DNA from: a virus
Lineage: Duplodnaviria; Heunggongvirae; Uroviricota; Caudoviricetes
Strand: one strand, 5' to 3'
Virus record (IMG/VR): IMGVR_UViG_2563366879_000003
Location: 1 to 27,123 of that record
DNA: 27,123 nucleotides
Shown here piece after piece: positions 15,001 to 18,000 of this stretch. Position numbers: made by a program. Every line of letters begins with the position of its first letter. Within the stretch, counting starts at the first letter, position 1.

Positions 15001-18000
15001 ATTTTTGATTCTATTCCGGCACCGTCCAGAACTTCAAACGCGTTGAAAATAAAAACAAAAACCCGCCGAAGCGGGTTAAGTGCGGGTGCGTTGAGGATGC
15101 CTGCCACATCAGAGGTGGCGAGGGATTTCTCCCTCGCCGGGTCTCTTACTCCTCAGGTTCGTAAGCTGTGAAGACAGCGACCTCCGTCTGGCCGGTTCGG
15201 ATTCGTACCTCGCAGAGGTCTTTCCTCGTTACCAGTGCCGTCACTATGACGGTTAAACAGATGACGATCAGGGCGATTAACATCGCCTTTTGCTGCTTCA
15301 TAGCCTGCTTCTCCTTGCCTTCCGGCACGTAAGAGGCTAACCTACATGTGTCTAGCATGAAATTGGCCTCAGATTAATGTTAAGCGTCTTGCAGGACGCG
15401 TAATGTTAACTGGGGCTTTTCTCTATCTGCCTTTGGTGTTCATGCCCGAGGCAGATAGCCTCAAGCACCCGCAGCCATTCTACTTAACTACCGTTACCTC
15501 GCCAATATGAAATCAGTCAGAAAGGCGATCCATAAGAACAATAGCAAGACAATAAATCGCCATTACAGCCGTAATAGCCAGCGCACATTTGAGAACCAGC
15601 ACCACAACCTCCTGTATTGGACGTAGACCAGTCCTGATGAATATGAGGCTGTCTCGTCAGTGATTCAATACAACTATTGGGTATAGTTTCTCTGATTTTT
15701 TCTGTGGAAATGGGGCACAACCACTAGTCACCACCAGCACTTCTTTTAATACGCAAAGTCCGACACAAGCTAACCTTCTAGTCCGCTTTGAGCGAGGAAC
15801 GGACGTTGTATAGGTTAGTTAGCGCATCCTCATGAATTGGTGTTCCTTAAGAGATTCATAACGAAGCGTTTGCATCGGCGGTAGTGTTTATAATCGGTAT
15901 GAGCCCCCGAGAGGGCTCACATTTCAAATGTATTACGAGGTTACGCTCAATTAGGAACTTCTCATATGTTTCCGCGATAAATCACATTCAAAGCCCGTCG
16001 AGAGTAAGACATCAGTTCACCTGGCGTGATGGGTTCTGATGATGCCTGAGGGTTCGTGTCATGATGATAGCGACCAGCATAATTGTTAATTTCATTCAAC
16101 TCAGGTACCAGTGATTTAGCGAAGAATAACGGATCGCTCGGTTGTGCTTGTGCAATCTGCGCTACTACCTCTCCAAACAGATTTCCCGGTGAAATTTGCC
16201 CCGGGAAACGACGATGCAGATACCCTTCAAGAAGCGGTCTGATCGCCACCGCCGTATCGTGAAGCTGATGATGAGCACCATCGGCAAATCCGCTCACCAG
16301 ACGATGATTTTTATAGTAGGGAGATTCACATTCCAGATCGATATCTAGTTTATCCAAGCTACTGAAATCACCAGCAATGTTGACAATGCGTAAGGTTGAA
16401 ATGTCCTGCATTTGAGTAGCAGGTATTTTCAGGAACTCATCTCGCATGGTACGGATAAAGAACAGGTCGTGCGCCAAGATGATTACCTGCAAGCTGCGAA
16501 GGTAAATCTGTTTAATGATGGTGATTGTGTGGTTCCTGCGATGATTGTCCAGACTACACATCGGATCATCAATCACTACAATTTTTCTCTCAAGATCAAC
16601 GTCATGAAGCAACACTGAAATAAAGAATGCGAAGGCTAGCGTCCTTTTGTCCCCTTCACTCAATGAGCTCCGGAAACTGGATTCTTCTCCCGTTAGCGAA
16701 ATCTTTTCCCCTCTAAGTTCAATTGCATATTCAGACTTAGGCTCACCGCCGCCAGCATAGTTATAATTAATTTCTGTGATGCGAAAGCTTGCACCAAACT
16801 TCATCAATAAATCATTGATGGAGGATTGATACTTTCCAAGGGTCGAGTCCATGATCGCATTGAGTTCAGCCCTCCGTGTTTCCTTCAGTTCAGAGGCAAC
16901 CACTTCAGCAGTTTTAGCGGTCTGATAATCAGAGATAAAACCTACTATCTCAGGTGATAGACGAAGTCGTGTTGCTTCATACTGGGATAATGTAACCCGC
17001 AGGGTTTCTTCATTTTTGGTTTCAAGCGCCTCTTTATAAGCCTGAATATCCAGATTGGCAGCTTCCACGCCCGAATTAAAGATAGAAAGCTCATCATTGA
17101 TTGCAGTTACTGCATCCGCGATTTCTTTTTCATAGTCGCCTTGGGTCTTTGCAAGCGGATCGTTTTTCTTGGCTTCCGTTAAGCGGTTCAGCGATGATTG
17201 AAGACCTTCCAAACTAGCTTTAATTTTATCTAAATCAGGGAGACTCACGGGCAACTGGAGACAATCTTTCCAATTTTCAGTCACTAAACCAGCCTGCTCA
17301 ATCTTGCTTTCAAGTAAGGCCAGATTGAAAACGCGCATGGCAGTCGCCACAACTTTATCTAGGCCTGTGACCTGATTAAGTAAGGCTTTGTATGCAAGAT
17401 TAAACCGCTCCCGGTAGTACCGGATCAGTTCAATACCCTCCAGGCTTTGCGTACAGAAAGGACAATATTCGTCTTTTATATAATCAAGGCCGTTGCTCGC
17501 CCATCGCTCAAAACCTTCGACATTGATATGGTCAATATGCGCACAGACGACCTCTTCTGCACCCGCACTGAGGCTGTCATAGCTAGCTGCAAGAGTGGAA
17601 AAAAAAGAACTGAAATCAGGAGCGTAAAGAGGTAACGAAAGATAACCCGTACGGTTGCGGATCGTCTCTATTCTTTTGCAGAGATCCAGTTCTGATTCGA
17701 CTAATGCAATTTTTTCCTGAATGTTATCTTCCTGAACAGGCTTTATGTATTTTGCTAGAGTTACATTCCCCCGGGCTACTGTCAGCTTTTCACTTGCCAG
17801 TCTCGTAACTCTCTTGGCCTCCTCTGCCTTGTCTGATGCATCAATAAAAGCAGCCCTCGCGGCTACCGCATCACTGCCCAGCGCAAAACTCAGCAGTCGC
17901 TTTCTATGGCTAGCGCTGATTTCACCACCTGAGTAAACATTACGGTCAACAAAATCTAGGTCGAAGACGTGCACATCTGAATACTTACCATTCCATGTAT

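What the first reader, a model, noticed from the sequence alone, without database searches (positions are those of the whole stretch)
15359..15961. Intact hok/mok locus plus 480 bp of unassigned DNA with a strongly SD-led 30-codon hydrophobic ORF
Unlike K-12 hokD, which is embedded in relBEF without its own mok leader, this copy has a full 70-codon mok frame and a dedicated terminator. Between it and the ATPase gene lies a region with a 9-bp-stem hairpin (15423-15458) and, on the minus strand, GGAGG followed 5 nt later by GTG GTG CTG... (about 15605 to 15513) encoding MVLVLKCALAITAVMAIYCLAIVLMDRLSD, a single-TM peptide reminiscent of type I toxins. It may be a second small toxin, part of the hok leader, or a partner of the upstream ATPase.
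Basis: inference. Interest (0 to 1): 0.4.

Follow-up and report, generated by a model that had tools for sequence, protein, structure and literature searches.

The report
Prophage microprotein gene beside hok/sok
The "unassigned" DNA holds the leader, promoter and Sok antisense gene of an intact hok/sok toxin-antitoxin locus, plus a separate, conserved but uncharacterised 29-codon gene for a membrane peptide that about a third of complete E. coli genomes carry and annotation pipelines almost always miss.

Summary
The sequence facts hold, but the interval is not 480 bp of unassigned DNA. All features below are on the minus strand unless stated.

- **hok leader:** 15359-15470 is the hok mRNA leader. 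Sok is encoded antisense to this leader.
- **hok promoter:** 15477-15505.
- **Small ORF:** 15602-15513, a real 29-codon gene. The conserved start is the second GTG, which is ATG in some relatives. It has an AGGAGG ribosome-binding site.
- **Its own promoter:** TTGAAT-17-CATATT at 15668-15640. This promoter is invariant in three lineages whose spacers have diverged.
- **Evidence it is coding:** 92 of 93 independently sampled phage copies keep the frame. A diverged 34-aa paralogue (Sakai ECs_5710/XECs145) differs mainly by synonymous or hydrophobic changes, and published Ribo-seq shows it is translated.
- **Distribution:** the family is confined to Escherichia lambdoid prophages. It has no Pfam, NCBIfam, PHROG or PADLOC family and is nearly always unannotated.

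It is not part of the hok leader, not a relBE remnant and not a partner of the ATPase. The ATPase is a swappable candidate-defence cargo gene. Nothing supports a second type I toxin. The peptide is most likely a non-toxic single-pass membrane protein whose target is unknown. Interest is modest.

The parts
15146..15358 (-). mok reading frame (70 codons). It overlaps hok (15301-15146, 51 codons, HokD).
   Evidence: ORF list. Pfam HOK_GEF, E 3e-23. PGAP calls the identical stretch hokD in other genomes.
15056..15470 (-). Predicted full-length hok mRNA. Its 5' end is GGGUGCUUGAGG (15470-15459). The complementary fbi element is at about 15094-15082. The terminator is at 15077-15060.
   Evidence: Rfam RF01794 over 15296-15470, 117 bits. 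Terminator scan. The minimum-free-energy fold closes the 5' end onto the 3' end, z -8.3.
15425..15458 (-). It is the 5' (tac) stem-loop of hok mRNA.
   Evidence: It is aligned to the first helix of the RF01794 model and folds as predicted.
15315..15420 (+). Sok antisense RNA gene. Putative promoter TTGCCT (15315-15320), 17-nt spacer, TAACCT (15338-15343). The RNA runs about 15350-15420: a single-stranded 5' tail, a long hairpin and a U-run.
   Evidence: Sequence. Fold -28.7 kcal/mol, z -4.65. The same hexamers are kept in locus L223 although its Sok 5' end differs. The promoter is inferred; the consensus scan did not flag it.
15477..15505 (-). hok promoter: TTGGCG, 17-nt spacer, TAGAAT.
   Evidence: Promoter scan. 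The AGTTAAGTAGAAT segment is conserved in most of the 79 distinct upstream sequences recovered from the hok-anchored loci.
15513..15602 (-). 29-codon microprotein gene (GTG 15602 to TGA 15515-15513), product MLVLKCALAITAVMAIYCLAIVLMDRLSD. There is an alternative in-frame GTG at 15605. One transmembrane helix is predicted at residues 6-24.
   Evidence: frame, start and ribosome-binding site conserved; pN/pS 0.26-0.54. (Kyte-Doolittle mean 2.58). (deposited as hypothetical or membrane protein, e.g. WP_000960667.1).
15608..15613 (-). Shine-Dalgarno sequence AGGAGG of the microprotein gene.
   Evidence: Present as AGGAGG, GGGAGG, AGGAG or (in a few loci) GGGGG in the lineages examined.
15640..15668 (-). 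Inferred sigma-70 promoter of the microprotein gene: TTGAAT (15668-15663), 17-nt spacer, CATATT (15645-15640). The transcription start would be near 15633. A conserved TACGTC motif lies at 15625-15620 in the short 5' UTR.
   Evidence: Phylogenetic footprint. The hexamers and spacer length are kept in three lineages whose spacers are about 41% identical (my count from the alignment). 81 of 105 ORF-anchored hits carry it. It scores 8 of 12 matches by my count, below the scan's 9-of-12 cut-off, and one search did not list it.
15669..15810 (-). Conserved non-coding block that travels with the microprotein gene. It begins with a 7-bp hairpin (15804-15781) exactly where homology between genomes starts.
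   Evidence: Conservation profile; homology to other prophages ends at about 15810. Indels of 1, 9 and 14 nt argue against coding.
15811..15961 (-). 3' flank of the ATPase cargo cassette. It contains a GC-rich hairpin at 15900-15919. It is not part of the hok or microprotein module.
   Evidence: Only 2 of 5426 genomes share this stretch. Column identity is 0.34-0.45 over 15811-15880.

Best explanation
The window is a Qin-like lambdoid prophage. On the minus strand, in transcription order, the finding covers:
1. the 3' flank of a swappable cargo gene (15961-15811);
2. a self-contained microprotein module (15810-15513);
3. an intact hok/mok/sok type I toxin-antitoxin locus (15505-15056).

**The microprotein module.** It has its own sigma-70 promoter, a short 5' UTR, a strong ribosome-binding site and a 29-codon gene. 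The product is one transmembrane helix with a conserved Tyr-Cys inside the helix and a conserved L-M-D-R-L tail.

**Transcription.** No terminator lies between the gene's stop codon and hok. Its transcript is therefore expected to run on through the hok domain. That domain is predicted to stay folded shut and translationally inert in such a read-through RNA.

**How the peptide most likely works (inference).** I think it is a non-toxic, membrane-embedded peptide that acts by helix-helix binding to a larger membrane protein of the host or the phage. This is how KdpF, MgtS, AcrZ or PmrR work, and how small prophage exclusion proteins work. I do not think it is a pore-forming toxin.

**Shown versus inferred.**
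- Shown here by computation and comparison: gene structure, conservation, promoter footprint, linkage and integrity of hok/sok.
- Shown only for the paralogue in E. coli O157:H7 Sakai: translation.
- Inferred: membrane insertion, read-through into hok and mode of action.
For: **hok/sok is intact**
- RF01794 at 117 bits and Pfam HOK_GEF.
- Promoter and terminator found.
- The 5'-3' closed fold has z -8.3.
- Sok forms a hairpin with a U-run.

**The ORF is a gene**
- Loci were sampled by hok alone, with no reference to the ORF. About 50 of 141 of these carry an intact copy with its ribosome-binding site and a GTG or ATG start.
- 92 of 93 family copies sampled by the first six codons keep the 29-codon frame, across 35 distinct nucleotide variants.
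- The only indel seen inside the ORF is one in-frame codon deletion. The adjacent non-coding block has 1-, 9- and 14-nt indels.
- pN/pS is 0.26-0.54, and the other two frames contain stops.
- The A' paralogue has a different N-terminus with its own AAGGAGG-ATG start, joined in frame to the conserved C-terminal 24 codons. About 10 synonymous differences separate those codons from the window copy.
- E. coli B lost the end of the upstream DUF977 gene but kept the ORF and its ribosome-binding site.
- In 7 phage contigs the ORF and its promoter block persist with hok replaced by other DNA.

**Translation of the paralogue**
- The paralogue is XECs145/ECs_5710. It sits directly upstream of mok in Sakai prophage Sp6.
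- In LB, ribosome footprints are 346 RPKM against 79 RPKM of RNA, a ribosome coverage value (RCV) of 4.35 with coverage 0.99 (PMC5597208 Table S2).

**Other support**
- Promoter footprint.
- Transmembrane helix, Kyte-Doolittle mean 2.58.
- A modelled read-through RNA keeps the hok domain closed.
Against: - There is no transcript or translation data for this exact copy.
- pN/pS is only moderately below 1, and variable sites are not strongly biased to third codon positions (12, 8 and 16 of 24).
- Nucleotide identity across the ORF (0.93-0.99) is as high as in the hok promoter. Some constraint could therefore be on the DNA or RNA itself.
- The promoter scores only 8 of 12 consensus matches by my count, and the scan did not call it.
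- The Sakai paralogue lacks this promoter and sits in an operon. Its expression says little about how this copy is regulated.
- The proposed mode of action is analogy only. No target is known, and no sequence similarity to any characterised small protein was found.
Confidence: 0.7

Rival explanations
1. The 29-residue peptide is a second type I toxin. A small hydrophobic killer peptide would be held in check by an undetected antisense or trans-acting RNA, duplicating or backing up Hok.
For: - It is a small single-pass hydrophobic peptide with a strong ribosome-binding site, next to a genuine type I toxin.
- The minimum-free-energy fold of its mRNA partly pairs the ribosome-binding site.
- An AT-rich hairpin followed by a T-run lies on the plus strand near 15672-15702. 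It could end an antisense transcript (my reading of the sequence).
Against: - No promoter-like site lies on the antisense strand between 15470 and 15700.
- mRNA structure is not exceptional (z -1.9; 9 of 200 shuffles fold as well).
- Nothing matches in Pfam, NCBIfam or PADLOC, which hold many known toxin families.
- The tail is acidic, and the N-terminus is acidic in the paralogue.
- The paralogue is among the more heavily translated novel ORFs in growing Sakai cells (RCV 4.35). That is the opposite of a silenced toxin.
- The gene has a constitutive-looking promoter of its own.
Confidence: 0.1
2. The peptide is a functional companion of Hok. It would be a membrane-embedded modulator, immunity factor or co-effector, so that phage hok loci are really three-part modules.
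For: - In all 10 distinct genomic contexts returned for the paralogue, a HOK_GEF gene follows within about 250 nt.
- 84 of 93 type-A copies in phage contigs have hok immediately downstream.
- No terminator separates the two, so a shared transcript is expected.
- Two other, apparently unrelated small transmembrane ORFs occupy the same slot just upstream of the hok promoter in other phages: type B (27 aa) and type C (59 aa).
Against: - hok/sok works without any such ORF. The chromosomal hok locus sampled here (L119) lacks it. Plasmid R1 hok/sok also lacks one (my own knowledge).
- 7 phage contigs keep the ORF and promoter with no hok.
- 4 loci keep hok with the ORF cut through by recombination.
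- Linkage may only reflect gene order in a conserved phage region.
Confidence: 0.12
3. The ORF is not translated. The stretch would be conserved as DNA or RNA, for example as an upstream element of the hok promoter or a recombination joint, and the open frame would be incidental.
For: - Nucleotide conservation across the ORF is very high, including third positions within the type-A lineage.
- The codon-position bias of variable sites is weak.
- PGAP almost never calls the ORF.
Against: - The diverged paralogue conserves the protein rather than the DNA (pS 0.51 against pN 0.27) and has a new in-frame N-terminus with its own ribosome-binding site and ATG.
- The one indel in the ORF is in frame.
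- The ribosome-binding site and start codon are kept where the flanks are unalignable.
- The ORF survives without hok.
- Ribo-seq shows ribosome footprints on the paralogue.
- An ORF with both a strong ribosome-binding site and a transmembrane-grade stretch arises in 0.1% of shuffles.
Confidence: 0.05
4. The ORF is an accessory subunit or regulator of the upstream 763-aa ATPase.
For: Adjacency and the same strand only.
Against: - The ORF block lies next to a DUF262 gene, a DUF4145 gene, an integrase, a methyltransferase, DUF977 or DUF551 in other genomes.
- Only 2 of 5426 genomes share the ATPase junction.
- Homology breaks at about 15810, between the two genes.
- The ATPase matches PDC-S06 in PADLOC (E 7e-72). 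The S prefix marks it, to my knowledge, as a single-gene candidate.
Confidence: 0.02

Closest known systems
hok/sok (parB) of plasmid R1 and prophage hokW-sokW of Sakai Sp5 (PMC8621323)
   Same: The 15056-15505 part has every element:
- hok overlapped by a 70-codon mok;
- a structured leader matching RF01794;
- 5'-3' closure of the mRNA;
- an antisense Sok with a single-stranded tail and hairpin;
- its own promoter and terminator.
   Different: Nothing of note. This copy is the complete form of the hokD allele that K-12 carries truncated behind relBE.
ECs_5710 / XECs145 of E. coli O157:H7 Sakai (Hücker et al. 2017, PMC5597208)
   Same: - It is a homologous microprotein: the C-terminal 24 residues align with about 50% identity.
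- It has the same position directly upstream of the hok promoter in a lambdoid prophage.
- It has a single transmembrane helix with Y-C in the helix and an LMDRL tail.
   Different: - 34 aa, with an acidic N-terminal extension.
- It has no promoter of its own. It follows another small transmembrane ORF (type B) and a DUF551 gene in an operon.
- An inverted repeat separates it from hok.
- It has Ribo-seq evidence; the window copy has none.
Bacterial small membrane proteins that bind larger membrane proteins (KdpF, MgtS, PmrR, AcrZ); from my own knowledge
   Same: - Size of 29-49 aa.
- One transmembrane helix.
- Own promoter and ribosome-binding site.
- Small residues (Ala, Thr, Gly) spaced every 3-4 positions along the helix, which suits helix packing.
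   Different: No sequence similarity (NCBIfam and Pfam give no hits). No known partner. Encoded by a phage.
Type I toxins (Hok, Ldr, Ibs, TisB, ShoB, DinQ, ZorO)
   Same: A small hydrophobic peptide, located next to a real member of the class.
   Different: No antisense RNA detected, no family match and an acidic rather than basic tail. The paralogue is translated in healthy cells.

Membership tests
hok/sok type I toxin-antitoxin (applies to 15056-15505) | Hok/Gef-family toxin ORF | tested here: met
   PF01848, E 3e-23, residues 25-66 of the mok frame. NF007279, E 1e-12.
hok/sok type I toxin-antitoxin (applies to 15056-15505) | Overlapping mok frame and a structured leader that holds the Sok target | tested here: met
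   70-codon ATG ORF at 15358-15146. RF01794 at 117 bits against a gathering score of 59.
hok/sok type I toxin-antitoxin (applies to 15056-15505) | Pairing of the 5' end (tac) with the 3' end (fbi), which locks the full-length mRNA | tested here: met
   The minimum-free-energy and centroid folds pair 15470-15459 with about 15094-15082; z -8.3.
hok/sok type I toxin-antitoxin (applies to 15056-15505) | Antisense Sok RNA with its own promoter and terminator hairpin | tested here: inconclusive
   The hairpin with U-run folds well (z -4.65). The promoter TTGCCT-17-TAACCT is below the scan threshold and is inferred from position and conservation only.
Type I toxin (applies to the 29-codon ORF) | Small hydrophobic membrane peptide | tested here: met
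   The 19-residue Kyte-Doolittle mean is 2.58 over residues 6-24.
Type I toxin (applies to the 29-codon ORF) | Cognate antisense or trans-acting RNA antitoxin | tested here: not met
   No plus-strand promoter-like site at 15470-15700. No Rfam match other than sok. These are consensus scans only, so the test is weak.
Type I toxin (applies to the 29-codon ORF) | Toxin translation kept off in growing cells | tested here: not met
   The paralogue XECs145 has an RCV of 4.35 and footprints of 346 RPKM in LB. The mRNA fold z is only -1.9. This is evidence from the paralogue, not from this copy.
Type I toxin (applies to the 29-codon ORF) | Toxicity on over-expression | not testable with these tools
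   Needs an induction experiment.
Type I toxin (applies to the 29-codon ORF) | Sequence membership of a known toxin family | tested here: not met
   No hits at E up to 1 in Pfam, NCBIfam and PHROGs, or up to 0.1 in PADLOC.
Genuine protein-coding small gene (the ECs_5710-like microprotein family) | Frame, start codon and ribosome-binding site conserved across diverged copies | tested here: met
   92 of 93 copies intact, 35 nucleotide variants, GTG or ATG starts, and the only indel is in frame.
Genuine protein-coding small gene (the ECs_5710-like microprotein family) | Purifying selection on the protein | tested here: met
   pN/pS 0.26-0.54, with stops in the other frames. The strength is moderate.
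Genuine protein-coding small gene (the ECs_5710-like microprotein family) | Experimental evidence of translation | not testable with these tools
   Available only for the Sakai paralogue (PMC5597208).
   blastn with word size 7 and E below 1e-3 gives a single alignment, which ends at window 15315.
Accessory gene of the AAA_13 / PDC-S06 ATPase | Co-occurrence with the ATPase across genomes | tested here: not met
   2 of 5426 genomes share the junction, whereas 1974 carry the ORF block.

The most novel reading that the evidence does not exclude
Phage hok loci may be composite membrane modules. In this reading the microprotein works together with Hok, for example by tuning Hok insertion or oligomerisation, or by protecting the lysogen. 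The unrelated small transmembrane ORFs (types B and C) that fill the same slot immediately 5' of the hok promoter in other phages would do the same job. That would add a protein component to a toxin-antitoxin system thought to be regulated by RNA alone.
Probability: 0.12. Interest if true: 0.6.

Novelty: new member of a known kind. Interest (0 to 1): 0.3.

Why it matters
- The hok/sok part is textbook and adds nothing new.\n- The microprotein gene is widespread and essentially unannotated. The sequence block is in 1974 of 5426 complete E. coli genomes, and PGAP lists no feature there in nearly every sampled row.\n- It has clear signs of being a real, independently transcribed gene, yet no function.\n- It sits at the fixed edge of a variable cargo slot that holds candidate defence genes, and directly upstream of a membrane toxin. 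That makes it a cheap and well-defined target for a knockout or over-expression experiment.\n- If it modulates Hok, phage exclusion or a host membrane protein, that would be a useful addition to small-protein biology. If it does nothing measurable, little is lost.

Tried and rejected
- **Family searches.** I worked around this with an alignment headed by a 64-aa read-through entry. This is a clustering artefact: the peptide starts at an ATGA overlap with the DUF551 stop codon.\n- **Literature by peptide string.** A full-text search found nothing. Supplements of the Enterobacteriaceae microproteome preprint had no hit. The hokW-sokW paper does not mention an upstream ORF.\n- **Pas sRNAs.** These were considered for the conserved 200-bp block. 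They map elsewhere, next to the lysis genes.\n- **relBE remnant.** Rejected.\n- **Overlapping 67-aa ORF.** The Cys-rich ORF at 15720-15517 was rejected because a 14-nt deletion in phage mEp460 and other indels fall inside its span.\n- **Terminator-like hairpin inside the ORF** (15578-15559). Treated as chance, because it is absent from the paralogue.\n- **TACGTC motif.** GTNTACGTCM occurs only once more in the window, at 21403-21412. That is too few copies to interpret.
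Full report
**Setting.** The window is a Qin-like lambdoid prophage read on the minus strand. In transcription order the genes run:
- the replication genes, ending with a DUF977 gene;
- a 763-aa ATPase (18253-15962);
- the finding (15961-15359);
- mok/hok (15358-15146);
- rem;
- a DUF968 gene (ydfU);
- antiterminator Q.

DicF, a cspA-type leader and STnc490 confirm the Qin-like context.

**Checking the observation.** Every sequence fact is there.
- The 70-codon mok frame, the 51-codon hok frame and the terminator at 15077-15060 are present.
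- The 9-bp hairpin has arms at 15425-15433 and 15450-15458.
- The ORF at 15605-15513 encodes the stated peptide.
- One detail needs correcting. AGGAGG (15613-15608) lies 2 nt from the first GTG and 5 nt from the second.

A short ORF alone means nothing, because every one of 2000 dinucleotide shuffles has one. An ORF with a strong ribosome-binding site and a membrane-grade hydrophobic stretch appears in only 0.1% of shuffles. Within the 27-kb window only this ORF and hok combine a small size, a strong ribosome-binding site and a Kyte-Doolittle mean above 2.

**What belongs to hok/sok.**
- Rfam's sok model (RF01794, which covers the hok leader) matches 15296-15470 on the minus strand at 117 bits.
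- hok mRNA therefore starts at 15470 (GGGUGCUUGAGG). Its promoter is TTGGCG-17-TAGAAT at 15505-15477.
- The predicted 415-nt RNA closes its 5' end onto a complementary 3' element near 15094-15082 (z -8.3). This is the classical tac-fbi lock.
- On the plus strand, 15350-15420 folds as a single-stranded tail, a long hairpin and a U-run, as expected for Sok. Its promoter (TTGCCT-17-TAACCT) is inferred.
- K-12 homology ends at window 15315. The K-12 hokD allele thus lacks everything upstream of the hok ribosome-binding site. No relBE-like sequence exists in the window interval.

**The small ORF is a gene.** I sampled relatives in two independent ways.

*Sampling by hok.* I anchored on the hok mRNA 5' end only, using viral and genome contigs. 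About 50 of 141 loci carry the ORF or a paralogue. Each has a ribosome-binding site and a start at the position of the second GTG. The start is ATG in one lineage, so the product has 29 residues.

*Sampling by the ORF.* I anchored on the first six codons. 92 of 93 family hits keep the 29-codon frame. The pooled loci hold 35 distinct nucleotide variants.

*Other coding signals.*
- The only indel inside the ORF is one in-frame codon deletion. The 200 bp upstream carry 1-, 9- and 14-nt indels.
- pN/pS is 0.26-0.54. The other frames contain stops, and replacements are mostly Ala, Val, Ile or Thr.
- A diverged paralogue (A', 34 aa, MSDDISLAMEGALAVIAVVGVYCLVVFLMDRLGN) keeps the C-terminal 24 codons. 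About ten synonymous differences separate them from the window copy. Its N-terminus is new and has its own AAGGAGG-ATG start.
- E. coli B lost the 3' end of the upstream DUF977 gene yet retains the ORF and its ribosome-binding site.

**Published expression data.** The paralogue is ECs_5710 in Sakai prophage Sp6, directly upstream of mok. Hücker et al. 2017 (PMC5597208) list its N-extended form, XECs145, among their novel translated genes. Values from their Table S2:

| Condition | RNA (RPKM) | Ribosome footprints (RPKM) | Ribosome coverage value (RCV) | Coverage |
|---|---|---|---|---|
| LB | 79 | 346 | 4.35 | 0.99 |
| BHI control | 121 | 150 | 1.14 | 0.84 |

This shows translation for the family, not for this copy.

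**The ORF has its own promoter.** Three lineages have upstream sequences that are otherwise hard to align. All three keep TTGAAT or TTGAAG, a 17-nt spacer and CATATT. Their spacers are only about 41% identical by my count. They also share a TACGTC motif and the ribosome-binding site. 81 of 105 ORF-anchored hits carry the pattern. In the window these elements lie at:
- the -35 hexamer, 15668-15663;
- the -10 hexamer, 15645-15640;
- the TACGTC motif, 15625-15620.

The consensus scan missed this promoter because it scores 8 of 12 matches by my count. No terminator lies between the ORF stop (15513) and hok, so read-through into hok is expected. In a modelled read-through RNA the hok domain still folds shut.

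**What it travels with.**
- The conserved block runs from about 15810 to beyond hok.
- It is present in 1974 of 5426 complete E. coli genomes. PGAP lists no feature under the match in nearly every sampled row. One exception is WP_000960667.1.
- Upstream of 15810 the neighbours differ between genomes:
  - this ATPase, in 2 genomes only;
  - a DUF262 gene plus an IS element;
  - a DUF4145 gene;
  - an integrase fragment;
  - unnamed ORFs in phages mEp460 and Tritos;
  - a methyltransferase in phage HannyBb.
- The ATPase matches Pfam AAA_13 and PADLOC's candidate system PDC-S06 over its full length (E 7e-72). In the PDB it resembles only Rad50. It is cargo, not a partner of the ORF.
- Downstream, hok follows in 84 of 93 type-A phage copies and in 10 of 10 paralogue contexts.
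- Seven contigs keep the ORF and promoter with hok replaced. Four loci keep hok with the ORF truncated by recombination.
- The two units are therefore usually adjacent but separable.

**What kind of protein it is.**
- It has one transmembrane helix (Kyte-Doolittle mean 2.58 over residues 6-24).
- Tyr17, Leu23, Met24 and Leu27 are invariant in the nine-sequence alignment. Cys18, Asp25 and Arg26 vary in one to three of those sequences.
- Small residues are spaced every three to four positions along the helix.
- It has no Pfam, NCBIfam, PHROG or PADLOC family.
- All database relatives are from Escherichia and are named 'hypothetical' or 'membrane protein'.

**Mechanism.** The gene has a constitutive-looking promoter, no detectable antisense partner and an mRNA of ordinary stability (z -1.9). 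Its paralogue is translated in healthy cells. On this basis I judge a silenced type I toxin unlikely (0.1). The best reading is a benign bilayer peptide that acts by binding a larger membrane protein. That is an argument by analogy, and the target is unknown. Tight linkage to hok, and the presence of other small transmembrane ORFs in the same slot, leave open a functional tie to Hok (0.12).

**Verdict.**
- The hok/sok part is already known.
- The ORF is a new member of a known kind: a prophage small membrane protein whose family is already catalogued as hypothetical and, for one paralogue, as translated.
- It is worth a simple experiment but is not surprising. Interest 0.3.

Noticed in passing
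window 15962-18253 (-) and the slot between 15810 and the DUF977 gene at 18547-18948: This slot is a cargo hotspot. It holds a Rad50-like AAA_13 ATPase here (PADLOC PDC-S06, E 7e-72, with a CPFC motif in its coiled-coil region). In other E. coli prophages it holds a DUF262 gene plus an IS element, a DUF4145 gene or an integrase fragment; K-12 has relBE upstream of hokD. The flanks are fixed.
   Followed up: partly
L027 and L011, about 300 nt upstream of the hok mRNA start; L088; Sakai locus L249: A second small transmembrane ORF, type B (27 aa, M-x-WPEAF...VY-x-ICRWG). It starts at an ATGA overlap with the stop codon of the preceding gene (DUF551 in L027 and L011), which suggests translational coupling. 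It sits either directly before hok or before the A' paralogue. One database entry (P0127) is a B-A' read-through fusion.
   Followed up: partly
L095 and L039, 89 nt upstream of the hok mRNA start: A third, unrelated 59-aa hydrophobic ORF with possibly two membrane-spanning stretches (MKNALQFLFVAFWLF...CIEYWR). It has an AGGAGG ribosome-binding site and occupies the same position upstream of hok in other phages. It is deposited as a hypothetical protein on 1000 or more contigs.
   Followed up: no
window 15781-15804 (-): A 7-bp hairpin (consensus GTCCGCT, a 10-nt loop, AGCGGAC) lies exactly where homology between prophages begins. The stem is nearly invariant (GTCCGTT in this window, one AGCGGCC in L223) and the loop is variable. 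No U-tract follows, so it is not an obvious terminator. It may mark the recombination joint for cargo exchange.
   Followed up: no
L176, L198, L243 and four other viral contigs, downstream of the ORF stop: A variant of the microprotein ending in MERLSD keeps its promoter block, but hok/sok is replaced. In its place are about 250 nt of unrelated DNA, a bidirectional-looking terminator and a convergent gene on the opposite strand.
   Followed up: partly
L147 (E. coli BLR(DE3)) 2562-2921: In E. coli B the DUF977 gene is truncated. Its annotated product reads out of frame across the microprotein gene (...DPDLIWSLYVKSRRFMCWFSNARWLLWL). The annotated C-terminus is therefore probably an artefact of a deletion joint.
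   Followed up: yes
L119 and similar loci, 40-100 nt upstream of the hok mRNA start; also L027: A perfect inverted repeat (CGATATGGGAATTCCCATATCG) sits just upstream of the hok promoter, both in a hok locus that lacks phage neighbours (probably chromosomal) and in the O157-type phage loci. Homology between these two kinds of locus starts at the last two codons of the A' gene.
   Followed up: no
window 21403-21412 (-): This is the only other copy in the window of the GTNTACGTCM motif found in the microprotein 5' UTR. It lies near the dicA/ydfA-like immunity region. One of 100 shuffles gives two or more matches.
   Followed up: no
window 5733-5931 (-), 11184-11307 (-), 11609-12001 (-), 22317-22368 (+): Rfam hits at gathering threshold elsewhere in the prophage: IS009, STnc490, a cspA-type thermoregulator leader and DicF.
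   Followed up: no
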